From a virus, in IMG/VR virus record IMGVR_UViG_3300045988_155520, positions 224,001 through 288,000 of that record: DNA of 64,000 nucleotides, one strand, 5' to 3'. Under the pieces are notes generated by a model. The model searched no databases. It was given only the letters and a program-made list of their open reading frames with translations, and was not told the origin of the DNA. Below are positions 1,822 through 59,937 of the stretch, in pieces (the stretch's first letter is position 1; each line of letters starts with the position of its first letter). The position numbers and the translations under genes were made by a program.

Positions 1822-2010
1822 CAAACTAAATTATAACCTATTCCGATAGTTGTTCGTTAACAAATCCTAACAAAAACGTCAGCTTTGTTACTAATCATCT
1901 GTAAGCATTTCAACCTACAGCGGAGCTATCTTTCATCGCCCGTATTAAGATGTTACGGGCACCATTAAGGTCTCTGTGAACCCTATTCCTTCATATTATC
2001 TATTTTATCC
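1822..2010 (-). ncRNA. orphan TnpB 3'-end / omega-RNA-like scaffold copy plus 21-nt flank
   Basis: 1843 to about 2010 aligns base for base with 21650 to about 21815, the 3' end of tnpB plus 67 nt downstream. It retains hairpin GCCCGTA (1938-1944) / TACGGGC (1954-1960). The coding frame is broken by a 1-nt deletion upstream of the HRDLNGARNI codons. Homology ends at 1843, followed in minus sense by the 21 nt AATAGGTTATAATTTAGTTTG and then T8 (1814-1821). Confidence 0.55.
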
Positions 2011-2596: not shown

Positions 2597-2926
2597 CTAT
2601 TTTTTGAAACTTTCTCCGATTGCATTAATAACATCATCACTTACATTTAATTCAGATGATATATATAGACGCTTATATCTCTCATTGTCATTCATAACAA
2701 ACATAAGTTTGATGATTTTTCCTTTATAATCTAAATACCAAATATGAGGTGACAAAACAGATTTACTATCGGTTTTTAATATAGTAGATACGTCCTTGCG
2801 TGTTAAGTCCACGTCAATAATAGTCCTATCAAAAAGAGTTTTAAAAAACTCACTAATCTTATTAGATTCATTTTTTGAATAAGACTTTAAATCTTTTATC
2901 TTATTATTTAAATTAATTGCATTCAT
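2597..2926 (-). CDS. hypothetical protein
   Basis: 109-aa ORF with promoter 2957-2988. Confidence 0.8.
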   Translation of the reverse strand: MNAINLNNKIKDLKSYSKNESNKISEFFKTLFDRTIIDVDLTRKDVSTILKTDSKSVLSPHIWYLDYKGKIIKLMFVMNDNERYKRLYISSELNVSDDVINAIGESFKK

Positions 2927-2956
2927 AATTTCTATTTGTTTATTGATTTACGACTA

Positions 2957-2988
2957 CAAAGATAATTATTTAATTTGATATATCCAAA
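2957..2988 (-). promoter_or_regulatory. Bacteroidota-type promoter
   Basis: -7 TATCTTTG (2957-2964), -33 TTTG (2985-2988), 20-nt spacer. Confidence 0.75.
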
Positions 2989-3115
2989 TAGATTTTATAT
3001 TTTAATATTAATTTAACACTTGATAGAATATTTGCTTTGTAAGACGTTAAAACAAACTATCTATATAAGTTATCAGATAAAACAAAAGAACTCTTTAGAA
3101 ACGAAATAAAGTGCA

Positions 3116-3160
3116 TAAAACAAAAAATCTACCATGACTTATCACAAGCAATGGTAGATT
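3116..3160 (-). terminator. hairpin terminator with conserved loop
   Basis: Stem AATCTACCAT (3126-3135) pairs with ATGGTAGATT (3151-3160). On the minus strand TTTTTTGTTTT follows. The loop matches the 1776-1810 hairpin and the stem differs by compensatory changes. Confidence 0.7.
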
Positions 3161-3212
3161 ATGAAAAACATTGACTAACTAACCAACTAAATTATTTTCT
3201 ATTGTATTTTTT

Positions 3213-3563
3213 TTAATCAAAATATATCCTATCAACTAAAGACAAAACGTCTTCCATGTGCATAGCATCAATATTTACCCACTTATCACACTTCTGTCCA
3301 TTTTCGACAACAACATGACCTTCAAAACTTGTAAAGTAATCAGTTTTATTGCTTCTTACTTTGTCGATATATAATAGCGAACAAGTTTTATTAATAGCTG
3401 TGCCTTGTAAAAGATAACACTTGAAAGGGTAGTTATTATTCAACACAGAAACACCTTCTTGTCCATACTTTTCAATTTCAGTTTTAACTTCATCAAAACA
3501 TTCACGATAGTAATTAGAAATATCGTCTAAATATCCCTTGATAATAGCTTGATTGTTTGTCAT
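3213..3563 (-). CDS. hypothetical protein (tandem paralog of 3569-3922)
   Basis: 116-aa ORF. Shares the C-terminal pattern CDKWVNIDAM.. / CDEWIAINDF.. with its neighbour. Confidence 0.8.
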   Translation of the reverse strand: MTNNQAIIKGYLDDISNYYRECFDEVKTEIEKYGQEGVSVLNNNYPFKCYLLQGTAINKTCSLLYIDKVRSNKTDYFTSFEGHVVVENGQKCDKWVNIDAMHMEDVLSLVDRIYFD

Positions 3564-3568
3564 AACGT

Positions 3569-3922
3569 TTACTTGCTTTGTTCAAATTTAATACAACCAA
3601 TAATACCAAATGCTGTTTCAATGTCAAAATCATTGATTGCTATCCACTCATCGCACACTTCATGGTTATTAGTTACCACGTGTACTTCAAGTATCGGTTC
3701 GGGCAATACACTATCAGCGACACGAATAGCGTTAATCTCGTAACGTACAGATTCGCAATCATCGTAAACAGCGTCCGCAACATAATTCTCATCGTCCCAA
3801 ACAACAGGTAAACCCTTCTCTCCAAATGGTTTCAAATAATTTACAACATAAGCAATTGTCATGTTATATCGGTTATATGTTTCATACATTAACCTATCAA
3901 ATTCTTTTTGAAATTCTTTCAT
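3569..3922 (-). CDS. hypothetical protein (tandem paralog of 3213-3563)
   Basis: 117-aa ORF separated from its paralog by a 5-nt gap. Confidence 0.8.
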   Translation of the reverse strand: MKEFQKEFDRLMYETYNRYNMTIAYVVNYLKPFGEKGLPVVWDDENYVADAVYDDCESVRYEINAIRVADSVLPEPILEVHVVTNNHEVCDEWIAINDFDIETAFGIIGCIKFEQSK

Positions 3923-3946
3923 AATTCTAAATGATTATTAGTTTGT

Positions 3947-4120
3947 TTATTCAATTTCAATATCGGTAAATTCAGTGTCAACTACTCTCATACCTTCAAT
4001 CTCATCAGCTGTTACTGAATAAGTACATTCTGTACCAAATGTATCTAATAACTCTTCTTCTGTCATGTTTTCGTCATGTTCAACCAAAACACTAATTGTT
4101 AATTGTAGTCTTGTTTTCAT
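3947..4120 (-). CDS. small acidic hypothetical protein (57 aa)
   Basis: Hand-translated MKTRLQLTISVLVEHDENMTEEELLDTF...EIE. ATG lies 42 nt downstream of the -7 box at 4162-4169. Below the ORF-track size cutoff. Confidence 0.6.
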   Translation of the reverse strand: MKTRLQLTISVLVEHDENMTEEELLDTFGTECTYSVTADEIEGMRVVDTEFTDIEIE

Positions 4121-4161
4121 AATTCCTTTTTGTTTGTTTGTTTGTTAATTGATTTGTAGTG

Positions 4162-4193
4162 CAAAGGTAATGAAATAAATTGAAACTACAAAA
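4162..4193 (-). promoter_or_regulatory. Bacteroidota-type promoter
   Basis: -7 TACCTTTG (4162-4169), -33 TTTG (4189-4192), 19-nt spacer. Confidence 0.75.
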
Positions 4194-4213
4194 TATTCCA
4201 TTACTATTAACAT

Positions 4214-4531
4214 TTATTTAACACTAATAAAGTTTTTGTTCTTATTGAATTGATTAAAAACATCAACACAAATTGTCATTTCGCTATATACGTTGTCTAC
4301 ATACATAGTCCTTGCCCATTCTTTTGCCTCCTCTAAAGTTGGAAAACTATTAGTAGGTGTCCTATCATCATATTCCCTATAGAAATCATAACAAGTTTTA
4401 TTTAAGTAAGAAGATTTACTAATTTTGCATATTCCTTCACTTGTTACGGCTAATAAATCACCTTCCATTTCAAACCATTCAAGACAAACAGACTTGGCTG
4501 CAATCTGACTTATGTTAATCTCTTTTTCCAT
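4214..4531 (-). CDS. hypothetical protein
   Basis: 105-aa ORF, last gene of the unit driven from promoter 5458-5489. Confidence 0.8.
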   Translation of the reverse strand: MEKEINISQIAAKSVCLEWFEMEGDLLAVTSEGICKISKSSYLNKTCYDFYREYDDRTPTNSFPTLEEAKEWARTMYVDNVYSEMTICVDVFNQFNKNKNFISVK

Positions 4532-4823: not shown

Positions 4824-5426
4824 TTAACAATCTCCAATCATAGGAGGACATATTAAATCAAATAATTGTTCCTCAACAACCTTCTTGAAAATATGATATA
4901 ACATAATTTGGTCTTTTAATCGTAATTGATTTATATATATCCATTTGTCACTAACCTTATCATAGAACCTTATTGAACCATTATCACATACAACCTTTGT
5001 AAAAGTGAAATGTCCATTTACATTTGGTATGGTACGAACATTCTCATTAGCAATAATTTCATTATTATTTAAAGCTAAGAAAGTTGCAAACTTGTCAATT
5101 ATTTTCTGAGACAAATCACTTTCTTCCTCGCTTAATTCATAAATTGTTTCAGTCAATGAAATAGCCTTATAGATATGATTTAAACCATGTTCACTTGATA
5201 AATCAGACATAGGGATAAATTTATTATCCAAACAATCAAGTCTATTAACGCAATGGAAATAAATATCGCCCTTACTAAGTACAATGTTGCATACATCATA
5301 CTCTTCAATATCTTTTCTAACAATAGGACAATTATTAACGAATGAAATATTATTACGATATTTCTTTTGCATATACATACGCAAATTATTTACATCACTC
5401 TCGCTAAATTTTAATAATTTACTCAT
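4824..5426 (-). CDS. hypothetical protein
   Basis: 200-aa ORF with promoter 5458-5489. Confidence 0.8.
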   Translation of the reverse strand: MSKLLKFSESDVNNLRMYMQKKYRNNISFVNNCPIVRKDIEEYDVCNIVLSKGDIYFHCVNRLDCLDNKFIPMSDLSSEHGLNHIYKAISLTETIYELSEEESDLSQKIIDKFATFLALNNNEIIANENVRTIPNVNGHFTFTKVVCDNGSIRFYDKVSDKWIYINQLRLKDQIMLYHIFKKVVEEQLFDLICPPMIGDC

Positions 5427-5457
5427 AATTCTTAATTTGTTTTATTGATTTACAATG

Positions 5458-5489
5458 CAAAAGTAGGAAATTAATTTGATATACACAAA
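5458..5489 (-). promoter_or_regulatory. Bacteroidota-type promoter
   Basis: -7 TACTTTTG (5458-5465), -33 TTTG (5486-5489), 20-nt spacer. Confidence 0.75.
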
Positions 5490-5520
5490 TAATCCCTTAC
5501 TTTTAACTAAAATTTAACGT

Positions 5521-6171
5521 TTACATACTAATATAAAGGTTTTTATTCTCACCACCTTCTGTGAGGATATAGAAGTGTCTACATATCGTAATTTTATCTT
5601 CAAAGGTAAGTTCATTGAAGTTGATATATGTTTCACTTGCATTGTCATATGCAAACATTTCCCCTTCTTTAAATTTAATTTCGGTAAATTCATACCAAAG
5701 TTTCCCAAACTCATCATCAAAACCTTTTTTAATAAAACATGGTTCTAACTCGTTGTCAGTATCGGAAATTACATTACCAAACATTTCAAACATTCGTAAG
5801 AAATTATTTTCCAAAGCCGTTGTAATGAATTTAAAATTACGGAATACCATAGAAAGTGTATCATCTGTAAAGCCTATATGTTCATAAATAATAAGTTCTC
5901 CTTCATTATAGGAACTTAAAACATTTTCAATAGGTAATGAACAAATTTCACCATGTTCTGTTGTACCACTAACCATTAACTTATTGTTAATAAGTGTTAA
6001 TTCCTTAACATCTAAAGTAACAATAGAATTTGTATCTTCTTTGTCCTTGCTTGGAATAACAAATTTAACTTGTGGATATGGTGCCGTCAAAAAATATGTT
6101 GAATTATTCTTTTTCAACATAGAAATTACTTCATTTCTCTTTCTCTCTACTAAATTTGTATAAGCACTCAT
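5521..6171 (-). CDS. hypothetical protein
   Basis: 216-aa ORF with promoter 6213-6244. The overlapping 5514-5720 and 5615-5887 ORFs look spurious. Confidence 0.8.
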   Translation of the reverse strand: MSAYTNLVERKRNEVISMLKKNNSTYFLTAPYPQVKFVIPSKDKEDTNSIVTLDVKELTLINNKLMVSGTTEHGEICSLPIENVLSSYNEGELIIYEHIGFTDDTLSMVFRNFKFITTALENNFLRMFEMFGNVISDTDNELEPCFIKKGFDDEFGKLWYEFTEIKFKEGEMFAYDNASETYINFNELTFEDKITICRHFYILTEGGENKNLYISM

Positions 6172-6212
6172 AATTCTTATATTTTAATTTGTTTATAATT
6201 GAATTGTGGGTG

Positions 6213-6244
6213 CAAAGATAAAAAAATAACTTGAATTATACAAA
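6213..6244 (-). promoter_or_regulatory. Bacteroidota-type promoter
   Basis: -7 TATCTTTG (6213-6220), -33 TTTG (6241-6244), 20-nt spacer. Confidence 0.75.
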
Positions 6245-6262
6245 TAATCCAAGTTAATAAAA

Positions 6263-6361
6263 GTTAATTACCTTGCGGTAAAGTGTTACAAACATCACAA
6301 AAATTGGTGCGATAGTAATAGATACGTTGTGATTACCTTTCGGTATTATATTACAAACATC
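6263..6361. repeat. about 95-bp intergenic element with two TTACC-N4-GGTAA palindromes 65 bp apart (copy 1 of 2)
   Basis: ATTACCTTGCGGTAAAGTGTTACAAACATC (6267-6296) and ATTACCTTTCGGTATTATATTACAAACATC (6332-6361). The same architecture and spacing recur at 61734-61832. Confidence 0.7.
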
Positions 6362-11422: not shown

Positions 11423-11990
11423 GGATTTATTAACACCCGAAAGTAAAATGGAATTACGAAAAGGGGATTTCATTGTAAACACAGTTAATGACGATATTGT
11501 TATTGTTAAAGAGCCTGTAGATTTTGGAATAATATCAAAAGCATATAATAATTGTCAAGATAGTTCCATTATTGCCCGAGAGTTTATTTTAGGTGAAAAG
11601 TTTATATGTAATATAGGAACTTGGAGAAAAGCTACTCACGAAGAAAAGAATGAGTTTATTCAGGAACTTAAAGAACATGGTCATGAATGGGTTGAAGATG
11701 CAAAAGAATTATATTATGGTGGTAAAAGAACACCGATAGATTTTGAAAATAATCCTCCAAATAAAAATGATATCATTGTAAGAAGTGATGGTTTGATATA
11801 CGCAGAGTATCATCAAATGAATAGTACCAAAAATATATTCTTTGGAAAACTATGTATCTTTAGTGATAGAATGTATTTGGATGATTTGGTTATCATTGAT
11901 GATATGGCTTATACAGATGATTTGGAGTGGTATCATGCAAATGATAGAGAAATAGCAGTATTTAACAAATTACTTAAAACAAAGAAATAA
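11415..11990 (+). CDS. modular repeat protein, 2 modules
   Basis: 191 aa. Module is KGDFIV...about 55 aa...WRKATHEEKNEFIQELKEHGHEW. The same module recurs in 11992-14341 and in minus-strand genes 28361, 33086 and 35910. Confidence 0.8.
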   Translation: MDKDLLTPESKMELRKGDFIVNTVNDDIVIVKEPVDFGIISKAYNNCQDSSIIAREFILGEKFICNIGTWRKATHEEKNEFIQELKEHGHEWVEDAKELYYGGKRTPIDFENNPPNKNDIIVRSDGLIYAEYHQMNSTKNIFFGKLCIFSDRMYLDDLVIIDDMAYTDDLEWYHANDREIAVFNKLLKTKK

Positions 11991-11991
11991 A

Positions 11992-13467
11992 ATGGATAAA
12001 ATTCAAAAATTCGAATCAGGCACTTATATCACTAATGGAGAAATGAGTGGTATAGTTAAATGTTACTCAGCTGATATGTTTTATTTTCATAATAGATTCC
12101 CAGAAGAAGGAGGGAGTATATTTTTATACATAGCTTTTCTTAATGCAGATGATAAGCATACTATTCTCAAAGAAACGAAAACTTTTAATGATGGCTCATT
12201 CCGTGAAATGAATGATTCTGAAATTAATGAATTTAATCAAATGCTCTTGAAAAACGGATATATATGGGACGATGATTCTATGAAAGTCATTAAAATGGAA
12301 GCAACAGTCTCATCGGTTAATCAAGAAAATAAAACTGAAGAAATGAAAGAAACTAAACCAAAGTTCAAGACAGGTGATTTCCTTACAAGTATTGACGGAG
12401 TCGAAACATTTATCTTCATGAGATACGAAGAAGATGAATGGTTGTTAGGATGGAATATAGTATACGGTATAGACGAATGTTGTAATAAGTGTGAGGTGCA
12501 AAGATTTAATCCTGCACATCCTTGGCAATATTCAACCGATTATGAGAAACAACAATTTCTCTACAGACTAAGAGGCACATGTTATGTTTGGCATGATGAT
12601 GTAAAAGAAATGCGTAAGGAATATGAGTTAGATGATGATAAACTCAAATGTGGTGACGTTATTTATTTCAGAGATGGAGAAACTGTTATCTTCAAGGGAA
12701 TAACTGCTGATAAACTCAAGATGAGAGTATGGCATGCACCTACAGATGGTAACGTCTTAACTGAGTATAATAGATTTATTCCTTGGAAATATGCTACAGC
12801 TAATCAACAAGATTATATTCGTGATATATTAAAATTAAATGGATATGTATGGGATAAGGATGAAAATAACTTCTTCTCACACCCAAGAATGATAACTACT
12901 AATATTAGTGATAATTCCATTTCAATTCCAAATGAAATTCAACCTATCAATATTCCAGACGGATATATAGCAACTATTGAGAATGGAAAGATTTATTTCA
13001 CCAAAGAGTTTAAGGATGGTGATTTTATTAAAACGAAAACTGACTGTGCAATAGCAATCTTTAAAGAAATATCAGATGGAGGAGAGATTATTGGATACGC
13101 TGAATATTTTACTAAGAGTGACGGTTTTCTTATGGCAGAGGATGTTATCGGACACCATTTAAATCAATGGACAAAAGCTACAGATGAAGATATACAATTG
13201 TTCAAAGATAAATTGGCAGAACAGAATTATAAGTGGAATGAGGAATTAAAGCAACTTGTAGATTTATGCTGGATGCCTGAAATTGGAGAAACGTATTACT
13301 TTATTAATAGATATTTTAAGGTGATTAAAGCAAGAAATATTAATAGTAAAGCACAGCGAAAATATATATCATTACATAATTGTTTTAAGACAGAAGAAGA
13401 TGCAACGGAACTCTTAAAGGAACTGAAGCAAATGTTTGTAAACTATAATAAACAAAAATATGAATAA
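11992..13467 (+). CDS. modular repeat protein, about 5 modules
   Basis: 491 aa. Repeated units (F/Y)..GD(F/V)I... then (W/F).(K/Y)(A/S)T..(E/Q)...F...L...GY.W(D/N/H). Examples: FREMNDSEINEFNQMLLKNGYIWDD, WQYSTDYEKQQFLYRLRGTCYVWHD, WKYATANQQDYIRDILKLNGYVWDK, WTKATDEDIQLFKDKLAEQNYKWNE. Confidence 0.85.
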   Translation: MDKIQKFESGTYITNGEMSGIVKCYSADMFYFHNRFPEEGGSIFLYIAFLNADDKHTILKETKTFNDGSFREMNDSEINEFNQMLLKNGYIWDDDSMKVIKMEATVSSVNQENKTEEMKETKPKFKTGDFLTSIDGVETFIFMRYEEDEWLLGWNIVYGIDECCNKCEVQRFNPAHPWQYSTDYEKQQFLYRLRGTCYVWHDDVKEMRKEYELDDDKLKCGDVIYFRDGETVIFKGITADKLKMRVWHAPTDGNVLTEYNRFIPWKYATANQQDYIRDILKLNGYVWDKDENNFFSHPRMITTNISDNSISIPNEIQPINIPDGYIATIENGKIYFTKEFKDGDFIKTKTDCAIAIFKEISDGGEIIGYAEYFTKSDGFLMAEDVIGHHLNQWTKATDEDIQLFKDKLAEQNYKWNEELKQLVDLCWMPEIGETYYFINRYFKVIKARNINSKAQRKYISLHNCFKTEEDATELLKELKQMFVNYNKQKYE

Positions 13468-21016: not shown

Positions 21017-21493
21017 TTACATATCTCTTTCACTAAAATAGTTTATCATTTCATCATATAGGGCAAGTTGCATTTCCGTGCAAGGAATAGATAACAGAGT
21101 AAACTTTCGAAAAAGAAATAAATCTTCGCTAAAAGAATTACAAGATATGTCCCAATTAAAGAATATATTGACAGCAAAATGTAATAAATCTGACAAATCA
21201 TTGATGTTAATCTTAGTTTTATTACAAAGATAAAAGTTATCAATACAGTCGAGTAAAAGAGGAAGTTTATCCTCTATTTCAATCCAGAGATATAGATTCA
21301 ATTCATCAATAACTTCTTCATTGATAGTAGACATTTCATCATCTTTAGAAAATGAATCCACACGCATAACAACGTTACCATACTCTTCAATAACGTCAGA
21401 AAGTTCGATATAACAACTAATCATTTTAATATCATTATGACCATCCATTGTTACACCATAAGAAAAATTATTTATATCTTTACAATAGTCCAT
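21017..21493 (-). CDS. hypothetical protein
   Basis: The track ORF extends to 21670, but promoter 21517-21548 lies inside that extension. First ATG after the promoter is 21493 (MDYCKDINNFSYG...). Confidence 0.75.
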   Translation of the reverse strand: MDYCKDINNFSYGVTMDGHNDIKMISCYIELSDVIEEYGNVVMRVDSFSKDDEMSTINEEVIDELNLYLWIEIEDKLPLLLDCIDNFYLCNKTKININDLSDLLHFAVNIFFNWDISCNSFSEDLFLFRKFTLLSIPCTEMQLALYDEMINYFSERDM

Positions 21494-21516
21494 ATCATGT
21501 ATATTTTTATTTGGTG

Positions 21517-21548
21517 CAAAGATAGCAAAAAATACTTTACCATACAAA
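21517..21548 (-). promoter_or_regulatory. Bacteroidota-type promoter
   Basis: -7 TATCTTTG (21517-21524), -33 TTTG (21545-21548), 20-nt spacer. Confidence 0.7.
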
Positions 21549-21626
21549 TAATAAAAGTTAAAAAAACAAAAGAGAGAAGCGACATTATTCATCACTTCTC
21601 TCTTTAATTTATAAAAAATATTTTTT

Positions 21627-21815
21627 GAATAACATGTTTCGTGAATACGCCGATAGTTGTTCGTTAACAAATCCTAACAATAGTGTCAGCCTTGTTACTA
21701 ATCATCCACAGGTATCTCAACCTGCAGCGGAGCTATCTCTCATCGCCCGTATTAAGATGTTACGGGCACCATTAAGGTCTCTATGGACCTTAATTCCATC
21801 ATACATAAACCACTC
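21627..21815 (-). ncRNA. omega-RNA-like 3' tail of tnpB (scaffold 21650 to about 21815, candidate guide 21627-21649)
   Basis: Block duplicated at 1843 to about 2010. Hairpins GCCCGTA (21745-21751) / TACGGGC (21761-21767) and CAGG (21709-21712) / CCTG (21721-24). Conservation ends abruptly at 21650. Confidence 0.5.
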
Positions 21816-23066
21816 TTTTCCACCCAAGTTAGTCATTAACTCACCAGTAAAGCTATTGGTCTTGCTTGTGTATGACTCATTTTGTTCTACATACGCCACA
21901 CCGCACTCCTTGCACTTTTGCTTCAATCTCTCCTTAAACTCAAAGAATCGAAGGGATAGCATAGAGCGTACAATACTCTTACGTAGCTTCCTACCTTTCT
22001 TCGTCATTCCTTTTACCTCGAAAGGAGGGAATACTACGACAGAAAAATTGTGCACAAGGTAGTTTATACACTGCCAGTGCAATTCATCAACCAAGTCTTG
22101 TATTCTGTGGTACGTCCTATTAAGCGTGCGCTTCAGTTTACCTTTCTTCTTCTTATCCTTTGTTAATGCCAACCTGCTTAGCAGGTGGTCACGCTTAAGG
22201 TTAAGTGTTAGTATTCTGTCAAAGGCGTGTACACCAAGCCATCCAAATCGTCCATCTTCACTGAAGTAGGTAAGGAAATTCCTAACCCCAGGGTCTAAGG
22301 CAACAATACCACCTTGGCTTTCGGTCGGCATGGTTGTTATCTTCTGAGGTACGGAAAGATACCATCTTCCGTGGTCATAAATGAGACGACAATCACAGAT
22401 GTCATTTTTAAAAAACTCTCTTTCAGAGAACTTGAGTTTACCACTGATAGTGCGGTAAATTCCACTTGTTGACACAGCGGATTTAGGAATGTAACAACTC
22501 TGAACAGGGTTTTTACGAGTCTTATAATGCAACTTAAATGGTTTACCAGACTTCTTTGTTTTATTGCAGTTTGTCCACCATGAAGTGTAAGCGTCCTTTA
22601 CTGCAATCTTCTTTATCTGATATGGCACAGATTTAATATAGCTTTCAGTAAATTCAGCTAAGATTGTAGTACTCATTTTCATCCACCCTTTAATTTCAAT
22701 TTCTTTGCCGTTAAAGTGTTTAATGCAAGTATTGTACACCTTTCTTTCAACGCCAAACCACTGCTTAAAGAGTTGCTTTTGCTGTTGTGATGGATAAATC
22801 CTTATCCGTCTTGCCTTCGTCACTATAGTTCCTGGGTCTATGCATTCTTTATGTAAATGTATAAAGAGTTGCAAATAAGTATTCTGTGGGTTATTATTCT
22901 TAGATGTGACTTGTTTTGTAGAAAACCATGGTTTAACATTCATTGCACAGGAAGTGTTATCACATTCTGACATAGCACATTCTATGTCTTTGTGTGACAA
23001 CAAGTGTGAACTAATGCTTTTACATAAATCATCATAAAAAGTCTTATGGTCTTCCTGTACAGTCAT
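21650..23066 (-). mobile_element. TnpB-only IS200/IS605-superfamily-like element; left-end boundary unresolved
   Basis: tnpB without a tnpA. The right-end position is inferred from the homology break with the orphan copy. No terminal structures identified upstream of 23066. Confidence 0.35.
21717..23066 (-). CDS. tnpB: TnpB-family RuvC nuclease lacking the zinc ribbon
   Basis: 449 aa. Motifs: RIRIYPSQQQKQLFKQWFGVERKVYN, GIVALDPGVRNF (RuvC-I D), VVFPPFEVKGM (RuvC-II E), NESYTSKT, VHRDLNGARNILIRA (RuvC-III D). No Cys between YTSKT and HRD. The first about 95 residues are an extension carrying 5 Cys and 5 His within the first 75 residues. Confidence 0.85.
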   Translation of the reverse strand: MTVQEDHKTFYDDLCKSISSHLLSHKDIECAMSECDNTSCAMNVKPWFSTKQVTSKNNNPQNTYLQLFIHLHKECIDPGTIVTKARRIRIYPSQQQKQLFKQWFGVERKVYNTCIKHFNGKEIEIKGWMKMSTTILAEFTESYIKSVPYQIKKIAVKDAYTSWWTNCNKTKKSGKPFKLHYKTRKNPVQSCYIPKSAVSTSGIYRTISGKLKFSEREFFKNDICDCRLIYDHGRWYLSVPQKITTMPTESQGGIVALDPGVRNFLTYFSEDGRFGWLGVHAFDRILTLNLKRDHLLSRLALTKDKKKKGKLKRTLNRTYHRIQDLVDELHWQCINYLVHNFSVVVFPPFEVKGMTKKGRKLRKSIVRSMLSLRFFEFKERLKQKCKECGVAYVEQNESYTSKTNSFTGELMTNLGGKEWFMYDGIKVHRDLNGARNILIRAMRDSSAAG

Positions 23067-23323
23067 TATTTTTTATTTCTCTATTTAAAATATAATAAAA
23101 CCATAGGCTTTATCAAGTTATTATAAAAAATTATTAGTAACTGAAGAATAGTTAATACGCCTCAATTTTATATATTTTTGTATTTATATATGTATATTAT
23201 AATATATTGATTATCAGATAGTTACAATATCTAAATAATTAACATTTATGATAACAGAACTTAATGAGGGCCGTGCGTTGATACGTATGTTTATTTGCTA
23301 AAATATCACATCATTTCATGTAT

Positions 23324-24991
23324 CTATCCAAATATTTCTCTAATATCCATTGGTGTAATGGTTGTAAATTCATTGAGTTTCTCGAAGTCCTTTAATGAAA
23401 CATTAGAGAAAAACCCTTTATTTTGTTTGAGAGCTATACCATGTGTTTTACACATAATCAAGTATACACATTCTTCAGGAACATCTTTCGATGGTGTAAC
23501 ATAGAAAGTCTCTTCTATTGGAAGCTGAGTTAGTAGCCCAAATTTTTCAGAAATAACAAACATTCCATCTTCATCTTGAATTAAGTATAAGGTTTGTTCA
23601 CCTTCTCCTATCTTGCTAATGATGTCTGCCCAATATATATAAATTTCACATGTATCTGTATTTATTACAGAAATTTGATTATCTTTAAAACAAACCAACC
23701 TACCATATTGGTATACACATTTATCCACAGACTCATCAAACATGACCTTATTAGTTTTTTTATCTATTACTTGTTTATCTCCATCATCATCAGTCAGTAT
23801 AAGAATATTTTGATAGTTATCTAATTCCCTAATAGAAATCTCTTTTAACTTTTCCAAGGTCTTTGCGTTATAAATTCCGCCACCATCTTCTTCTTCATCA
23901 GTATTGGCGACAAATAAAAGACCATTATTTTCAATTGTGTCTATCCATTCATCACCGAAAGCTGCCTCGTGAATTAAACCATTCCTATCAATTAGAGCAC
24001 AAATTTCATATCCTTCATCAGTTTCACCTTGATAGACAACATAGTTTTTACTGTTGAAACAAACATTATCGTTAAAGTTGTAACCATAAATGTACAAATT
24101 GCCAGTTGTTTTATTCTGACACAATTTAAAACCATAATTCAAATTATCATCCAAAACTTCCACACCTTCAGGAATTAAACTCTGAATATCATCTGGATTA
24201 AATATACTATATATATCAGTTCCAATTAATTTAGAAAGTTGTTCTGGAGTCATTACAGAGTCGTTACCTCCGTTGTCATGATTCCATCTACAGGTTACTG
24301 TATTTACAGAACCATCATGTCTAAAAGATAGGGCAATCATCGAAAGTCCATATTCATCCAATGGACAATTTGGGCCTACCTTTCTTGGAACATTTTCAAA
24401 ACCTTCTTTTAATAAGAAATAAAACAAACCCTTACCTATACCGACATAATTAATGAAATCCTGTGAACGGTGAGTTACACACCATGTGGTGTAATCGCTA
24501 TATTCAGATGCCTCTGAAAACGATGGGATTGGAACAATTGTATAGCCATTATTATGTCCATTACTCTGTCCATAATGTGCGGTATTTTCTCTATTAGCCT
24601 TATCCGCTTGATGAACATAGCCTTCAAAATTTCTAAAAAACTCATCCAATGGCATACCATTAAGATTCTGGTCAAGATTTAGTTCCTTAGATTTGGCTGC
24701 TGCAACACTAATAAATTTGTTAAGTTTTAATAATGTGTCAGCATTTATTGATTTAGGATTCTGTAATAAAAATCTTACAACCGCTGGAAACAAATGAAAG
24801 TTTTCTTTACGTACACTTGGTATGTCATGCAATACTTTCTCTGTAAACTCTTTATCATTTGTATTTGGGGATAGTTCTCTAACCATTTTTCTTGCAAGGG
24901 ATTGGTTCTTTGAAGCACGGTTCTCAGTAATTAAACGACTTCTTTTAAATAAACTTGCGAACTGGTTTTTGTCTATAATAATTCTTCTCAT
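23324..24991 (-). CDS. hypothetical protein (shares a domain with 25564-26577)
   Basis: 555 aa. Shared block GPNCPLDEYGLSMIALSFRHDGSVNTVTCRWNHDNGGNDSVMTPEQLSKLIGTDIYS. The C-terminal half is repeat-rich. Confidence 0.85.
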   Translation of the reverse strand: MRRIIIDKNQFASLFKRSRLITENRASKNQSLARKMVRELSPNTNDKEFTEKVLHDIPSVRKENFHLFPAVVRFLLQNPKSINADTLLKLNKFISVAAAKSKELNLDQNLNGMPLDEFFRNFEGYVHQADKANRENTAHYGQSNGHNNGYTIVPIPSFSEASEYSDYTTWCVTHRSQDFINYVGIGKGLFYFLLKEGFENVPRKVGPNCPLDEYGLSMIALSFRHDGSVNTVTCRWNHDNGGNDSVMTPEQLSKLIGTDIYSIFNPDDIQSLIPEGVEVLDDNLNYGFKLCQNKTTGNLYIYGYNFNDNVCFNSKNYVVYQGETDEGYEICALIDRNGLIHEAAFGDEWIDTIENNGLLFVANTDEEEDGGGIYNAKTLEKLKEISIRELDNYQNILILTDDDGDKQVIDKKTNKVMFDESVDKCVYQYGRLVCFKDNQISVINTDTCEIYIYWADIISKIGEGEQTLYLIQDEDGMFVISEKFGLLTQLPIEETFYVTPSKDVPEECVYLIMCKTHGIALKQNKGFFSNVSLKDFEKLNEFTTITPMDIREIFG

Positions 24992-29794: not shown

Positions 29795-29817
29795 ATATTC
29801 TCTTATTAATTACACTG

Positions 29818-29849
29818 CAAAGATAATAAAACTATTCAATACAACAAAA
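29818..29849 (-). promoter_or_regulatory. Bacteroidota-type promoter
   Basis: -7 TATCTTTG (29818-29825), -33 TTTG (29845-29848), 19-nt spacer. Confidence 0.7.
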
Positions 29850-29861
29850 TAAAAATAGTTA

Positions 29862-29897
29862 AAAAAATAAAAGTGGAATACAAAAACATATTCCACT
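29862..29897 (-). terminator. rho-independent-like terminator
   Basis: Stem AGTGGAATA (29872-29880) / TATTCCACT (29889-29897). On the minus strand TTTTATTTTTTT follows. Confidence 0.7.
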
Positions 29898-34305: not shown

Positions 34306-35832
34306 TTATTTAAAAAACTTAGCGAACTCTTCTCCACCGTACTCATCAGCAGTTAATTTTATAATCTCTCTAATGGTGTACTTTTCCTTATGAGGAGTCA
34401 GCAATCTATTCTCAATAAAGTCTCTTGTACCAGTTGAACATGCGCCAGTAATAGACCTATATGCAACGATTGCTTCCTCAAAAGACAACGTATCATCCAG
34501 TGACAAATTCTTATAATCTGATGTATCTCTATCATTTATCTTATATATAAGGTCAGATTTAGCTTCTGCAAGAGTTGCCCCATGTGACCAATGACCTTCA
34601 CCATCAGTGATAAGATAAAGTGGATTATTTTCTTGCCCAAGTTTATGTACTTTATATACATTACCATGGTGAGAATCAATTACTGAGAAAATACCGTCAG
34701 CATTAATATACCTCACGCCATCTTTCTCCCATAAAGGAACCATATTTTTAATATCATGTATTTTCTTTTCCTGTTCTGGAGAAAGGACTCTATTAACTTG
34801 TGAAACATCTACAATTTCTGGATTATCTATTAAAACACAATCTACAACTGTTAAGTTATCTGGTAGTTCTATTATATCTGAACGATTTAGTTCAAGATAA
34901 TCACCGACAGTTAAGTTGTTAGGTAATTTTTTAATACGACTATTAACCAAAATAAGGCTATCAGTAACAGTTAAATTATCAGGTAGATGCAAATCATTCG
35001 TATGACATAGGTCTATGTCACCATTAACTTTCAAATTATCAGGAAGCGTTGTAATAGGAGTCTCACGAAGCGTAATAGAACCATTAACAACTAAGTTATC
35101 AGGAAGTTCTGTAATATTAGTATAACTTAGGTCCATACCTTCTCCAACTATTATGTTATTAGGTAACTTGGCTATATTTGTGTGATATGCACTGAGATAA
35201 CTACCAACTATCAAATTATCAGGAAGTTTTGTGATATCTGTATTACTTATATTAAGATATCCTCCGACTGTTAAGTTTTTTGGTAATTCTTTAATAGCAC
35301 TATAACTTAAACCAAGGTCTCCAAAAACGGTCAGGTTTTCTGGTAAACTGTTAATATCCGTATATTCCAAGTGAATACTTCTACCAACTGTTAGGTTATC
35401 AGGTAGTTTTGTGATATTACTGTAATCCAAACATAGAGAACCATTAACTATTAAGTTATTAGGTAACTCTGCTATAAACGTATTAATCAAAAATAAATCT
35501 CCGCCAACTTTTAAATTTTCTGGCAATTTTGTGACACCAGTACGGCATAATGATAAAAATCCACCAACTGTTAAATTATTTGGTAATTCTATAATATATG
35601 AATCAGTTAAGTCAAGAAAACCATTAACGGTTAAATTGTCTGGTAACTGACTAATATACTTATTACCAACCAAATCAAGATTTCCGTCATAATAAAACTT
35701 TCCCTCCTTAACTGAAAGTTCACACCAAGTTTCTTTATAGAATTTATCTATTATTTCTTTTTCTCTTTTAGTCATACGTTTTTTCTTTAAAAAATTCGCA
35801 TTTGGTATAAGGGCATTCTTTGAATTGTTCAT
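34306..35832 (-). CDS. LPxNLTV leucine-rich-repeat protein with conserved C-terminal domain
   Basis: 508 aa. About 13 tandem 23-aa units (LPDNLTVGGYLNISNTDITK...). C-terminal about 160 aa (WEKDGVRYINADGIFSVIDSHHGNVYKVHK...GEEFAKFFK) shared with 46974-48443. The true start may be MTKREKEIIDKF at 35775. Confidence 0.85.
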   Translation of the reverse strand: MNNSKNALIPNANFLKKKRMTKREKEIIDKFYKETWCELSVKEGKFYYDGNLDLVGNKYISQLPDNLTVNGFLDLTDSYIIELPNNLTVGGFLSLCRTGVTKLPENLKVGGDLFLINTFIAELPNNLIVNGSLCLDYSNITKLPDNLTVGRSIHLEYTDINSLPENLTVFGDLGLSYSAIKELPKNLTVGGYLNISNTDITKLPDNLIVGSYLSAYHTNIAKLPNNIIVGEGMDLSYTNITELPDNLVVNGSITLRETPITTLPDNLKVNGDIDLCHTNDLHLPDNLTVTDSLILVNSRIKKLPNNLTVGDYLELNRSDIIELPDNLTVVDCVLIDNPEIVDVSQVNRVLSPEQEKKIHDIKNMVPLWEKDGVRYINADGIFSVIDSHHGNVYKVHKLGQENNPLYLITDGEGHWSHGATLAEAKSDLIYKINDRDTSDYKNLSLDDTLSFEEAIVAYRSITGACSTGTRDFIENRLLTPHKEKYTIREIIKLTADEYGGEEFAKFFK

Positions 35833-59851: not shown

Positions 59852-59881
59852 AATTTATTTTTTAATTGTTTATTATGTCTG

Positions 59882-59913
59882 CAAAGTTAATAAATTAATT
59901 TAATATTACAAAA
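59882..59913 (-). promoter_or_regulatory. Bacteroidota-type promoter
   Basis: -7 TAACTTTG (59882-59889), -33 TTTG (59909-59912), 19-nt spacer. No further -7 box seen before the terminator at 55768-55801. Confidence 0.7.
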
Positions 59914-59937
59914 TCAATTTAGTTAAATATATATAAA

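What the first reader, a model, noticed from the sequence alone, without database searches (positions are those of the whole stretch)
21627..23066. TnpB with no zinc ribbon, a Cys/His N-terminal extension and a structured, conserved 3' tail
The 449-aa ORF carries the TnpB signature in the right order: RIRIYPSQQQKQLFKQWFGVERKVYN, ALDPGVRNF (RuvC-I Asp), FPPFEVKG (RuvC-II Glu), NESYTSKT, HRDLNGARNILIRA (RuvC-III Asp). It departs from typical TnpB/Cas12 in two ways.

- Where those proteins carry CxxC...CxxC between YTSKT and the last Asp, this one reads SKTNSFTGELMTNLGGKEWFMYDGIKVHRD, with no Cys at all.
- About 95 extra N-terminal residues precede the first TnpB motif, with 5 Cys and 5 His in the first 75.

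The LDPGVRxF / ESYTSKT / RDxNGARNI spelling is what I associate with the IS607-linked TnpB / Fanzor branch. That is recollection and has not been searched.

The last 22 codons plus 67 nt downstream are duplicated elsewhere in the window (see the 1822-2010 finding). This block holds two hairpins: a GC-rich one (GCCCGTA-N9-TACGGGC, 21745-21767) and a second (21706-21727). Conservation stops sharply at 21650. Minus-sense CGTATTCACGAAACATGTTATTC (21649 to 21627) therefore sits where an omega-RNA guide would be. There is no tnpA in the window.
Basis: partly seen in the sequence, partly recalled or inferred. Interest (0 to 1): 0.7.

Follow-up and report, generated by a model that had tools for sequence, protein, structure and literature searches.

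The report
Phage IS607-type TnpB with guide RNA
A gut-phage genome carries a stripped-down IS607 jumping gene whose RNA-guided nuclease (TnpB, a close cousin of the Fanzor2 enzyme of giant viruses) and built-in guide RNA both look functional; the features that looked odd are normal for its branch, so this is a well-supported new member of a known kind.

Summary
ORF 21717-23066(-) is a TnpB: it passes NCBIfam guided_TnpB above cut-off, and its closest solved structure is mimivirus Fanzor2.

It belongs to the published "pro-Fanzor/TnpB2" branch:
- It has the DPG motif.
- Pro347 sits at the canonical RuvC-II position.

The four zinc-ligand positions are N/T/Y/I. The ribbon fold is still predicted, and Cys loss is common across a large clade and is already reported. 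The N-terminal extension is the Fanzor2-type NTD, and its Cys/His are not conserved.

The element spans 21650-23159 and is a tnpA-deleted IS607. A sister copy (L006) keeps an IS607 serine transposase behind the same left end. Insertions sit at RAGG/GG targets.

The 141-nt 3' block (21650-21790) is a real structured RNA:
- It shows compensatory changes.
- It has a sharp boundary across about 30 insertion sites.
- A covariance model finds it at the tnpB 3' ends of distant relatives.

The guide (21649 downward) matches empty sites in sister phages.

A tnpB-less copy of the RNA gene (1843-1983) and 8-bp target duplications at both window insertions are unexplained by IS607 chemistry.

Verdict: new member of a known kind, of moderate interest.

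The parts
21650..23159 (-). Whole mobile element: a tnpA-less (non-autonomous) IS607-family element, about 1.51 kb. It sits between the stop codon of gene 23324-24991 and that gene's terminator.
   Evidence: Sister phages have the uninterrupted site ...AAAATTGAGGCGTATTCACGAAGC... (L017, L022, L025, L011). LE and RE are conserved at more than 25 different insertion sites.
23160..23163 (-). Left-flank target motif GAGG (RAGG). It contains the GG crossover dinucleotide and is the likely TAM.
   Evidence: 15 of 18 distinct full-length insertions, plus the orphan, have RAGG immediately before the LE. Empty sites show that it belongs to the target. IS607 targets GG (PMC6188088). ApmFz2 and ISXfa1 have a GGG TAM (PMC11832414, PMC10711439).
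23067..23159 (-). Left end (LE), non-coding. It has a variable 5-6 nt (CGTATT), then the conserved AACTATTCTTCAGTTACTAATA, a hairpin ATAAAGCC-N3-GGTTTTAT (about 23095-23113), an A/T-rich leader and the ATG.
   Evidence: Alignment A3. The identical LE precedes tnpA in the autonomous copy L006. The terminal motif AACTATY recurs as a direct repeat at the RE.
21717..23066 (-). tnpB, 449 aa, pro-Fanzor/TnpB2-type RNA-guided endonuclease.
   Evidence: NF040570 scores 136.7 bits against a cut-off of 100. Pfam HTH_OrfB_IS605 and a full-length Cas12f1-like_TNB also match, as does PHROG 506. The AF2 model has pLDDT 87.9 and pTM 0.85. The Foldseek top hit is 9b0l ApmFz2 at E 3e-22. dN/dS is 0.115 over 299 pairs of copies.
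22782..23066 (-). N-terminal domain (aa 1 to about 95), homologous to the Fanzor2 NTD (RuvC-R segment, W47-F48 motif). In autonomous copies these codons overlap the 3' half of tnpA in another frame.
   Evidence: The family profile aligns SWFS to SWYE of ApmFz2 around residue 83, at E 5.5e-68 overall. W47 and F48 are nearly invariant while the Cys/His are not. L006 tnpA 2700-3308 overlaps the tnpB match that starts at 3001.
22293..22295 (-). RuvC-I Asp258, in the DPG motif.
   Evidence: Invariant in 142/142 family members and in 25/25 copies.
21876..21878 (-). Catalytic 'alternative' Glu397 (NESYTSKT), seven residues before the first former zinc-ligand position.
   Evidence: Present in 141/142 (the remaining row has a gap) and in 25/25 copies. 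It aligns to the NE of ApmFz2 NEYLTTKTC, which contains the catalytic E467 (PMC11832414).
21792..21857 (-). Degenerate zinc ribbon (aa 404-425). The ligand positions read N404, T407, Y422, I425.
   Evidence: pLDDT is 88-93, and a beta-hairpin at 419-428 is retained.
21777..21779 (-). RuvC-III Asp430 (HRDLNGARN).
   Evidence: Present in 141/142 (the remaining row has a gap) and in 25/25 copies.
21650..21790 (-). Omega-RNA (reRNA) scaffold, 141 nt. It covers the last 24 codons, the stop codon and 67 nt downstream, forms five helices, and ends ...CUAUCGG.
   Evidence: RNAalifold predicts 41 pairs. 98.9% of cells are paired, 7 pairs show compensatory change, and 0/500 shuffles reach the observed values. 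CM R1 scores 171.9 bits. On a diverse alignment 31/41 pairs are compensatory and 91% of cells are paired, against about 35% when the pairing is slid. The fold z-score is -2.66. Synonymous diversity drops to 0.10-0.17 in the overlapped codons, against 0.21-0.42 elsewhere.
21627..21649 (-). Guide segment, CGUAUUCACGAAACAUGUUAUUC. The functional length is probably about 16-20 nt.
   Evidence: It is the first variable sequence after the RE in all copies. It matches the empty sites of sister phages with 2-4 PAM-distal mismatches directly after TTGAGG.
21644..21651 (-). Right copy of the 8-bp direct repeat GGCGTATT. The left copy is at 23154-23161.
   Evidence: The empty sites carry one copy and the filled site carries two. 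This is not expected for IS607 (PMC6188088).
21561..21604 (-). Intrinsic-terminator-like hairpin plus T-run of the upstream host gene. It is the likely 3' end of the tnpB/omega-RNA primary transcript.
   Evidence: The sequence is. It is present and conserved in empty sites. That it acts as a terminator is an inference.
1843..1983 (-). Orphan omega-RNA gene. It has a complete scaffold and no tnpB, lies in the 3' UTR of gene 2078-2440, and has the guide AAUAGGUUAUAAUUUAGUUU at 1823-1842.
   Evidence: CM R1 scores 162.9 bits over positions 1-141. It is 90% identical to the main copy, with helix 4 kept through 5 changed pairs. The same orphan at the same site in L076 differs by 1 of 141 nt. Empty sites are seen in L178-L191.
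1837..1844 (-). Right copy of the 8-bp direct repeat GGAATAGG that flanks the orphan. The left copy is at 1982-1989.
   Evidence: The empty sites carry a single GAATAG.

Best explanation
The locus is a non-autonomous IS607-family insertion sequence living in a large AT-rich phage. The host is probably a Bacteroidota bacterium. The element keeps its left end, its tnpB gene and its right end, but has lost the serine-recombinase gene tnpA.

**The protein.** TnpB here belongs to the pro-Fanzor/TnpB2 branch, the branch that gave rise to Fanzor2 of giant viruses.
- Its catalytic triad is D258, E397 and D430. The Glu is the 'rearranged' one, and Pro347 occupies the canonical RuvC-II position.
- Its N-terminal domain is of the Fanzor2 type.
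- Its TNB ribbon has lost the four zinc-binding Cys but keeps its fold.

**The RNA.** Transcription through tnpB continues across the right end to the host gene's terminator. The last 141 nt of the element fold into the omega-RNA scaffold. The 16-20 nt that follow (21649 downward) come from the flanking DNA and serve as the guide.

**The activity (inferred).**
- The TnpB-RNA complex recognises RAGG followed by a guide match. That combination is exactly the unoccupied version of its own insertion site in replicating or co-infecting sister phage genomes.
- It cuts that site.
- Repair from an occupied copy reinstalls the element. This is homing or retention, as shown for IS605/IS607 TnpBs.
- The occupied site is spared because the RE ends in TCGG rather than RAGG.

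**Movement to new sites.** This needs TnpA supplied in trans by the roughly 10% of sister copies that still encode it, through crossover at GG dinucleotides.

**What is shown and what is inferred.**
- Shown: family membership, element boundaries, empty sites, RNA structure and its conservation, purifying selection, and the existence of autonomous sisters.
- Inferred: transcription and processing, the identity of the TAM, cleavage, homing, and trans-mobilisation.
For: **Protein**
- It is a TnpB by HMM.
- The best sequence and fold match in the PDB is ApmFz2 9b0l (E 1.6e-20). A profile of an alignment of the query with 61 homologs matches it at E 5.5e-68, and Foldseek at E 3e-22 with TM 0.66.
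- D258, E397 and D430 are invariant, while E350 is variable and P347 is conserved.
- The triad is intact in 25/25 copies and dN/dS is 0.115.

**IS607 membership**
- L006 carries a 202-aa IS607 transposase (NF033518, 4e-54, 183 bits against a cut-off of 110) behind the same LE and in front of an 83%-identical tnpB.
- L061 (filled) compared with L022 (empty) shows a clean GG crossover.
- RAGG precedes the LE in 15 of 18 insertions.

**RNA**
- The conservation boundary is sharp.
- Covariation is seen in closely related copies and across phage and cyanobacterial relatives.
- G-U to G-C to A-U series place the structure on the tnpB sense strand.

**Guide and target**
- Ten sister phages carry TTGAGG/TTGAAG followed by CGTATTCACGAAGC... 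at the empty site. The first 12 nt match perfectly in nine of the ten.

**Published mechanism for relatives**: PMC10711439, PMC10530073, PMC11832414, PMC6188088.
Against: - No expression or cleavage data exist for this element or its close relatives.
- The TAM is inferred only from insertion-site flanks.
- Both insertions in this window carry an 8-bp target duplication, which IS607 GG crossover does not produce.
- 3 of 18 insertions lack the GG.
- No tnpA is present in the 64-kb window, and it is unknown whether this genome has one elsewhere.
- The effect of losing the zinc ligands on activity is untested.
- The sampled empty sites differ from the guide at 2-4 distal positions, so whether they are cleaved is uncertain.
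Confidence: 0.8

Rival explanations
1. Exapted TnpB: the phage has domesticated the nuclease and its RNA for its own use, rather than the unit being a selfish mobile element. Possible uses are RNA-guided exclusion of competitor phages, attack on the host, or transcriptional control as with TldR.
For: - The element lacks tnpA.
- The gene is under strong purifying selection.
- This lineage is found on phage contigs only; no close relative was found among GTDB species genomes.
- A tnpB-less RNA gene with a different guide is kept at a second locus in two phages.
- The empty alleles sampled at two of the three sites lack the AGG motif, and so do 2 of the 10 sampled at the main site. That would fit real cleavage pressure between phages.
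Against: - Copies sit at more than 25 different sites, with guides that simply equal their own flank. That is typical of a mobile element.
- Autonomous sisters with tnpA exist.
- The catalytic residues are intact, unlike in TldR-type regulators.
- Neither guide matches any other place in the window or in the fetched loci apart from its own site.
Confidence: 0.12
2. The conserved 3' tail is only the DNA right end that TnpA needs (binding sites), and no functional RNA is made from it.
For: - The terminal direct-repeat motif AACTATY lies in the tail and also at the LE.
- IS607 ends carry subterminal repeats that TnpA binds (PMC6188088).
Against: - 31 of 41 predicted pairs change on both sides while staying paired across distant relatives.
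- The helices tolerate G-U intermediates, which would be C-A mismatches on the other strand.
- The structure extends into the coding region, where synonymous sites are suppressed.
- The same architecture is found by a covariance model at tnpB 3' ends in relatives with 26-48% protein identity.
Confidence: 0.04
3. A decaying, inactive relic. Loss of the zinc ligands and of tnpA would mark a dead element.
For: - There are no Cys at the four ligand positions.
- There is no tnpA.
- Truncated remnants exist, namely the orphan at 1843-1983 and those in L069 and L084.
Against: - dN/dS is 0.115 at dS of about 0.77 across copies at different sites.
- The catalytic triad is intact in 25/25 copies.
- The same N/T/Y/I ligand replacements are fixed in all 25 copies and are common in a large multicopy clade.
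- The AF2 model is confident.
Confidence: 0.03
4. An IS200/IS605-type (Y1/HUH) element, or an IStron, rather than an IS607.
For: - The ends contain hairpins.
- Pfam names include OrfB_IS605.
Against: - The sister copy encodes a serine IS607 transposase, not a Y1 transposase.
- The junctions are at GG.
- The protein has the DPG/alternative-Glu signature.
- No group I intron or any other Rfam family is found.
- The insertion is intergenic.
Confidence: 0.01

Closest known systems
Fanzor2 of Acanthamoeba polyphaga mimivirus (ApmFz2, protein L79; PDB 9b0l)
   Same: - Best sequence, profile and fold match.
- DPG motif and the shifted catalytic Glu (NE..T.KT).
- Structured N-terminal domain, with the SWF/SWY RuvC-R segment.
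- Resident in a large dsDNA virus inside an IS607-type element.
- G-rich TAM next to a GG crossover.
- Omega-RNA that overlaps the 3' end of the gene.
   Different: - Only 19% identity.
- ApmFz2 keeps the C4 zinc finger and has a disordered NLS-bearing N-terminus.
- ApmFz2 sits beside its tnpA.
- Its non-coding RNA region extends about 200 nt past the ORF, against 67 nt here.
- Its host is a eukaryotic virus.
ISXfa1 TnpB and other 'pro-Fanzor'/TnpB2 IS607 TnpBs (PMC10711439, PMC10530073)
   Same: - Prokaryotic IS607 context with GG crossover.
- Right-end RNA of about 150 nt whose scaffold includes the right-flanking G.
- DPG plus alternative Glu.
- GGG-type TAM.
   Different: - Those were collected with a pattern that required CxxC...CxxC, so zinc-less relatives like this one were excluded by construction.
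- The N-terminal domain is not discussed for them.
- They are chromosomal rather than phage-borne.
ISFba1 TnpB with RAGATH-18-derived reRNA (PDB 8iaz; PMC11061315)
   Same: IS607-associated TnpB. It is the second-best structural match.
   Different: - No match to RAGATH-18 or to any other Rfam family here.
- ISFba1 lacks the N-terminal domain (384 aa).
ISDra2 TnpB (IS200/IS605; PDB 8h1j, 8exa)
   Same: - Overall WED-REC-RuvC-TNB architecture.
- Omega-RNA from the 3' end of the gene plus the right end.
- Homing/retention logic.
   Different: - Canonical RuvC-II Glu and a C4 zinc finger.
- Y1 transposase partner.
- TTGAT TAM.
- No N-terminal domain.
Zinc-finger-less and virus-enriched TnpB branches in the TnpB/Cas12 census (PMC10691335: RIIIr-4 lacks the ZF; RIIr-4, Y1-5 and RIIIr-4 are enriched in viruses)
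   Same: Loss of the C4 motif and rearranged RuvC-II in large, apparently active branches, some of them virus-specific.
   Different: I could not map this protein onto their named branches, because no tree or sequences were available here. RIIIr-4 has a RuvC-III rearrangement, which this protein lacks.
Free-standing homing endonucleases of T4-like phages (Seg, Mob)
   Same: This is a works-like comparison only: a phage-borne nuclease gene between conserved genes that would cut the allele lacking it during mixed infection and be copied in.
   Different: Those are protein-guided GIY-YIG/HNH enzymes, with no guide RNA and no transposon ends. Membership is not claimed.

Membership tests
TnpB (RNA-guided endonuclease, OMEGA) | Profile match above the curated cut-off across WED/REC/RuvC/TNB | tested here: met
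   NF040570 scores 136.7 bits against a cut-off of 100, over residues 87-440. Pfam HTH_OrfB_IS605 and the TNB domain are above cut-off.
TnpB (RNA-guided endonuclease, OMEGA) | RuvC D-E-D catalytic triad present | tested here: met
   D258, E397 (in the alternative position) and D430 are invariant in the family and in 25/25 copies.
TnpB (RNA-guided endonuclease, OMEGA) | Structured RNA that overlaps the 3' end of the gene, ends at the transposon right end, and is followed by a flank-derived guide | tested here: met
TnpB (RNA-guided endonuclease, OMEGA) | RNA-guided, TAM-dependent DNA cleavage | not testable with these tools
   This needs biochemistry or plasmid-interference assays.
IS607 family | Serine-recombinase TnpA (MerR-like HTH plus resolvase catalytic domain) | tested here: not met
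   Absent from this copy and from the 64-kb window. It is present in the sister copy L006, with the same LE/RE and an 83%-identical tnpB (NF033518, 4e-54). This copy is therefore a non-autonomous derivative.
IS607 family | Insertion by crossover at a GG dinucleotide present at the target and at the transposon termini | tested here: met
   The RE ends CTATCGG in 20 of 32 copies. The left flank ends ..AGG in 15 of 18 insertions. L061 against L022 shows an exact GG exchange.
IS607 family | No target-site duplication | tested here: not met
   This copy is flanked by GGCGTATT on both sides while the empty sites carry it once. The feature is met for L061. This is an unexplained departure.
IS607 family | No terminal inverted repeats; short directly repeated motifs near the ends | tested here: met
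   AACTATTC at the LE and AACTATC at the RE form a direct repeat, and no inverted repeat is seen. TnpA binding was not tested.
pro-Fanzor / TnpB2 / Fanzor2 clade | DPG at RuvC-I, and an alternative Glu six residues before the first zinc-knuckle position, with a non-acidic residue at the canonical RuvC-II site | tested here: met
   ALDPG is present. E397 is separated from N404 by six residues. P347 aligns to the Gly of ApmFz2 'ciGkl'.
pro-Fanzor / TnpB2 / Fanzor2 clade | C4 zinc finger between RuvC-II and RuvC-III | tested here: not met
   The ligand positions read N/T/Y/I. Cys is likewise missing at these positions in most of the closest representative clusters; across all 135 representatives scored, 75 have fewer than 3 Cys in this region.
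pro-Fanzor / TnpB2 / Fanzor2 clade | Fanzor2-type N-terminal domain (RuvC-R plus thumb) | tested here: met
   The profile aligns from ApmFz2 residue 76 onward, including the SWF/SWY strand. The Foldseek alignment spans 474 columns. This rests on sequence and model only.
pro-Fanzor / TnpB2 / Fanzor2 clade | GGG-type TAM | tested here: inconclusive
   The insertion flanks give RAGG. No depletion assay was done.
IS200/IS605 family | Y1 (HUH) TnpA, and insertion 3' of a 4-5-nt motif with subterminal hairpins recognised as ssDNA | tested here: not met
   There is no Y1 transposase in the window or in sister copies, and the partner is a serine recombinase.
IStron | Group I intron fused to the element, inserted within a gene | tested here: not met
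   There are no Rfam intron hits, and the insertion is intergenic.
Type V CRISPR-Cas (Cas12) | Adjacent CRISPR array | tested here: not met
   The whole-window repeat search found no array near the gene. Only two scaffold copies exist, about 20 kb apart.

The most novel reading that the evidence does not exclude
Besides classical TnpA transposition, the element spreads by a right-end-anchored, repair-type copying process triggered by its own RNA-guided cut.

The supporting pattern is as follows.
- The RE/GG junction is always exact, while the left junction forms wherever microhomology allows.
- This yields full-length copies with 8-bp target duplications and 5'-truncated 'orphan' omega-RNA genes.
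- Two independent orphans (window 1843-1983 and L084) begin at the same nucleotide. That nucleotide lies at the 5' edge of the region modelled as the RNA scaffold (helix 1).
- A shared start of this kind would even be compatible with copying from the RNA itself.

The orphan would then act in trans as a second guide for the single TnpB. That would make a natural two-guide system in a virus.

The TAM-less empty alleles seen in sister phages would be drive-resistance alleles. If so, TnpB homing would be an active gene drive among co-infecting gut phages.
Probability: 0.2. Interest if true: 0.75.

Novelty: new member of a known kind. Interest (0 to 1): 0.45.

Why it matters
**What it adds**
- It places a Fanzor2-like TnpB in abundant gut phages. 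The protein has the alternative catalytic Glu, the DPG motif and the N-terminal RuvC-R domain.
- The N-terminal domain was described as unique to the mimivirus enzyme among solved structures. This locus shows it is already present in prokaryotic viruses and in cyanobacterial IS copies.
- A zinc-free TNB ribbon is compatible with long-term purifying selection. That is useful for people who engineer compact editors.
- The published pattern-based census of pro-Fanzors required CxxC motifs, so it would have missed this clade.

**A testable system**
- The multicopy, mostly tnpA-less phage elements come with matching empty and TAM-mutated alleles in sister genomes.
- This gives a natural system in which RNA-guided homing between viruses could be measured.

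**What it does not change**
- It does not alter what a TnpB is or how it works.

Tried and rejected
**Searches that found nothing or failed**
- Megablast of the locus against 50,697 phage records gave no match.
- Rfam found nothing at gathering threshold on the whole window. At E<=10 on 21550-21900 it returned only chance hits to unrelated families (miRNA, snoRNA), none at gathering score and nothing for RAGATH-18 or any intron.
- ARAGORN found no tRNA.
- The genome-collection scan with the single protein found no close relative in GTDB species genomes.
It worked with the narrower A9.
- An exact-pattern search for an empty site of the orphan found nothing. The empty sites were found instead through the neighbouring gene.
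- My first LE regular expression was too strict and found nothing, so I replaced it with fuzzy matching.

**Hypotheses rejected**
- The N-terminal Cys/His form a replacement zinc site. Rejected because they are not conserved.
- A DDE-type mechanism produces the 8-bp duplication. Rejected because there are no terminal inverted repeats, and the orphan has the duplication without any LE.
- The element interrupts the downstream gene. The tblastn match that starts at the RE boundary turned out to be an artefact of an open frame through conserved intergenic DNA. The real gene starts at 21493.

**Considered and left open**
- Tn916-like 'coupling sequences'.
- One-ended recombination followed by microhomology joining.
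- RNA-templated repair, as a source of the duplications and of the orphans.


Full report
**1. The observation**

- Between YTSKT and HRD there is no cysteine.
- The 82 residues before the first TnpB motif hold 5 Cys and 5 His.
- A 143-nt block (21650-21792) recurs at 1843-1985 with 90% identity.
- The window is 29% G+C.
- It has no tRNA and no Rfam family at gathering threshold.

**2. What the protein is**

Profile searches identify a TnpB.
- NCBIfam guided_TnpB scores 136.7 bits against a cut-off of 100.
- Pfam HTH_OrfB_IS605 matches, and the Cas12f1-like TNB domain matches end to end.
- PHROG 506 also matches.

The closest solved structure is mimivirus L79, the Fanzor2 ApmFz2 (PDB 9b0l).
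- By sequence the match is E 1.6e-20.
- With a profile of 62 family members it is E 5.5e-68.
- An AlphaFold2 model (pLDDT 87.9, pTM 0.85) matches 9b0l first (E 3e-22, TM 0.66). The IS607 enzyme ISFba1 comes next, followed by ISDra2 TnpB and Cas12f.

Conservation in an alignment of 142 homologs:
- D258, in the motif DPG, is invariant.
- E397 in NESYTSKT, and D430, are each present in 141 of 142 rows (the remaining row has a gap).
- P347 aligns with the Gly that replaces the canonical Glu in ApmFz2. It is conserved in 139 of 142.

This is the published 'rearranged' active site of Fanzors and their prokaryotic ancestors, known as TnpB2 or pro-Fanzor (PMC10530073, PMC10711439, PMC11832414). The assignment of the Glu was wrong.

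**3. The missing zinc ligands**

The four ligand positions read N404, T407, Y422 and I425.
- These are fixed in all 25 full-length copies I collected.
- Most of the nearest representative clusters (clusters at 50% identity) also lack the Cys, while more distant ones keep CxxC...CxxC. Among 135 representatives, 75 have fewer than three Cys there.
- A genome scan seeded with the zinc-less spelling YTSKTNSF found 105 loci. Most are multicopy elements in cyanobacterial chromosomes, for example several copies in Anabaenopsis elenkinii.
- The ribbon itself is still predicted with confidence: a hairpin at 419-428 with pLDDT 88-93.

The accurate description is therefore a zinc-free TNB ribbon, not an absent one. 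Loss of the zinc finger in large TnpB branches has been reported (PMC10691335).

**4. The N-terminal extension**

About two thirds of the family carry the extension, whether or not they keep the zinc finger.
- Its conserved residues are aromatic and aliphatic (PYW, LWLPT, SWFS). W47 and F48 are nearly invariant.
- The Cys and His are not conserved.
- The family profile aligns this region with residues 76 onward of ApmFz2, SWFS onto SWYE. [quoted passage not shown]

The extension is therefore the Fanzor2-type domain, already present in prokaryotic relatives.

**5. The element and its family**

Related genes (80-85% identical) occur in many metagenomic contigs, with longest contigs of up to about 300-420 kb, often several per contig. 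Nine loci from IMG/VR sit in different genomic contexts.
- Conservation begins at TTAACTATTCTTCAGTTACTAATA upstream.
- It ends at ...GTTAACGAACAACTATCG(G) downstream.

Sister phages have the neighbouring genes without the element. Their sequence...AAAATTGAGGCGTATTCACGAAGC..., equals the window's left flank joined to its right flank. The element is thus 21650-23159. It is inserted between the stop codon of gene 23324-24991 and that gene's terminator.

One sister copy (L006) has the same left end followed by a 202-aa ORF. That ORF is an IS607 serine transposase (NF033518, 4e-54, 183 bits against a cut-off of 110).
- Its 3' half overlaps the first ~100 codons of tnpB in another frame.
- In the window copy, the tnpB coding sequence follows directly after an ATG at the position of that tnpA start codon, so the 5' half of tnpA is missing.
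- Three of 25 full-length copies are of the long, tnpA-bearing kind.

No transposase of any kind is found among 66 ORFs of the window.

Junctions:
- A filled/empty pair (L061/L022) shows an exact exchange at GG. This is the hallmark of IS607 (PMC6188088).
- The base after CTATCG is G in 20 of 32 copies.
- The left flank ends in RAGG in 15 of 18 distinct insertions. From base composition I expect under 1% by chance.

**6. The RNA**

Conservation across 30 copies:
- The 67 nt after the stop codon are as conserved as the gene.
- Diversity then jumps from 0.02 to 0.67 at the RE boundary.

Synonymous diversity falls to 0.10-0.17 in the last 30 codons, against 0.21-0.42 elsewhere.

RNAalifold on 32 distinct copies gives five helices and 41 pairs.
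- 98.9% of cells are paired.
- Seven pairs show changes on both sides.
- None of 500 shuffles reaches the observed values.
- Pairing collapses to 33-48% when partners are slid.

Several pairs run through G-U, G-C and A-U. That fits RNA on the tnpB sense strand and does not fit the opposite strand.

A covariance model built from these copies gave two results.
- In the window it finds only 21650-21790 (172 bits) and 1843-1983 (163 bits).
- Elsewhere it finds full-length matches at the 3' ends of tnpB relatives with 26-48% protein identity, in a Vibrio phage and in cyanobacteria.

On that diverse alignment 31 of 41 pairs have compensatory changes. The long-range helix GAUAG/CUAUC that closes the scaffold at the RE is 99% paired, with four of five pairs covarying. 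That alignment was fitted to the model, so the counts lean towards the structure. The slid controls (about 35% paired) still argue strongly for it.

The single sequence folds with z = -2.66.

The refuting condition 'tail conservation explained purely by coding' is therefore not met.

**7. Guide and target**

- Ten sister phages carry TTGAGG (or TTGAAG in two) followed by CGTATTCACGAAGC... at the empty site. The first 12 nt match perfectly in nine of the ten, and there are 2-4 mismatches in all.
- The RE ends TCGG, not RAGG. This would spare the occupied allele if the A matters, which is an inference.
- ApmFz2 and ISXfa1 use a GGG TAM, and in ISXfa1 the right-flanking G belongs to the scaffold (PMC11832414, PMC10711439).

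**8. Is it alive?**

Across 299 pairs of copies at different sites, the median dN/dS is 0.115 at dS of about 0.77. D258, E397 and D430 are intact in 25/25 copies. This is a functional gene family, not debris.

**9. Things IS607 chemistry does not explain**

**Target duplications.** Both insertions in this window are flanked by 8-bp direct repeats of target DNA.
- GGCGTATT flanks the full element.
- GGAATAGG flanks the orphan.
- In both cases the empty sites carry the sequence once.
- L051 and L066 show similar repeats, whereas L061 shows none.

**Orphans.**
- The orphan has no left end at all.
- A second, independent orphan (L084) begins at the same tnpB nucleotide (GTTCAC, codons 427-428). 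That nucleotide lies at the 5' edge of the region modelled as the RNA scaffold (helix 1).
- L084 is flanked by a diverged duplication of about 60-75 nt of the target gene's 3' end.
- The window orphan is kept, with 1 difference in 141 nt, at the same site in another phage (L076).

**Empty sites.** At two of three sites the sampled empty alleles lack the AGG motif, and the orphan's also carry a 1-nt deletion in the target.
- L005 site: GAAGT.
- Orphan site: GAAG plus a 1-nt deletion in the target.
- Main site: 2 of 10 lack it.

**Possible reading.** The pattern is an exact right junction, a microhomology-type left junction, truncations and variable duplications. It would fit a repair-type, right-end-anchored copying process triggered by a double-strand break, with resistant alleles accumulating. 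This is a hypothesis, not a result.

**10. Context**

The window looks like a Bacteroidota phage.
- The intergenic motif TTATCTTTGCA is repeated more than 15 times. To my knowledge it matches the Bacteroidota -7 box TAnnTTTG.
- There is a crAss001_48-like ORF, BspA-type LRR proteins, YopX proteins, a Pnkp-like RNA-repair enzyme and DNA methylases.
- No close relative of the tnpB is present in GTDB species genomes.

A second, unrelated TnpB/Cas12f-like ORF with an intact zinc ribbon and a canonical Glu lies at 55860-57479.

**11. Verdict**

The finding is real and the core interpretation is correct. The two 'departures' are clade-typical and already in the literature. The gene is a new member of the pro-Fanzor IS607 TnpB kind, in a phage. 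What deserves follow-up is the orphan guide-RNA gene, the target duplications and the possible homing drive among phages.

Noticed in passing
window 55860-57479 (-): A second, unrelated TnpB/Cas12f-like ORF of 539 aa. It has IGIDVN, a canonical RuvC-II MENLNN and an intact CxxC...CxxC ribbon (YTSKMCPVCG...FECVECG...DNADFNAAKNI). NF040570 scores 94 bits, just below the cut-off. One phage window therefore carries two different TnpB lineages.
   Followed up: partly
window 1823-1990 (-); also L076 276-440: An orphan omega-RNA gene without tnpB, in the 3' UTR of gene 2078-2440. It is flanked by the 8-bp repeat GGAATAGG, and it is kept with 1/141 differences at the same site in another phage. Sister phages with the empty site have GAAG+AATAGTTAT, which lacks the AGG and has a 1-nt deletion in the target.
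   Followed up: yes
L084 about 5170-5640 (reverse strand) and L069 about 11800-12290: A second orphan site. The remnant starts at the same tnpB nucleotide (GTTCAC) as the window orphan. About 60-75 nt of the 3' end of a small lipoprotein-like target gene is present on both sides, and the left copy is diverged and lacks the GG. L069 at the same site keeps tnpB codons 366-449 preceded by a 17-nt degenerate duplicate of the RNA's 5' start.
   Followed up: partly
L006 2700-3308 versus 3001-4353: In autonomous copies, the 3' half of the IS607 tnpA and the first ~100 codons of tnpB (its N-terminal domain) occupy the same DNA in different frames. Both match their family profiles across that stretch. 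The shared stretch is about 250-300 nt.
   Followed up: partly
L002/L041 about 300 and 6825; L012 and L016 about 7826: Empty alleles of occupied sites often differ at the presumed TAM. At the L005 site it is GAAGT in place of GAGG. At the window's main site, 2 of 10 phages have TTGAAG in place of TTGAGG.
   Followed up: partly
window 57704-59851 (-): A 715-aa fusion of a P-loop kinase, a calcineurin-like phosphoesterase and a T4-type RNA ligase. This is a Pnkp-like RNA repair enzyme, probably a counter-measure to host tRNA nucleases.
   Followed up: no
window 34306-35832 and 46974-48443 (-): Two paralogous BspA-type leucine-rich-repeat ORFs, with a 60-nt periodic DNA repeat of 21 units in all.
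   Followed up: no
window, more than 15 intergenic sites (e.g. 2446-2526, 6188-6268, 21515-21571, 29816-29872, 59880-59936): A recurrent intergenic motif TGCAAAGATAA (reverse complement TTATCTTTGCA) that resembles the Bacteroidota -7 promoter box. There is also a recurrent terminator-like hairpin family (1745-1818, 3095-3168).
   Followed up: no
L010-L021 (e.g. L011 1174-7656): The 555-aa gene next to the element (window 23324-24991) belongs to a family of 3-4 tandem paralogs in sister phages, at 39-59% identity.
   Followed up: no
L062 (Vibrio phage 184E37.1, MW824371.1 111158-112639): Isolated Vibrio crassostreae phages carry a 493-aa homolog (32% identity, including the N-terminal domain) annotated only as 'transposase', next to thyA and without tnpA. 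The covariance model finds the RNA at its 3' end (E 6e-6). This would be a cultivable system for experiments.
   Followed up: partly
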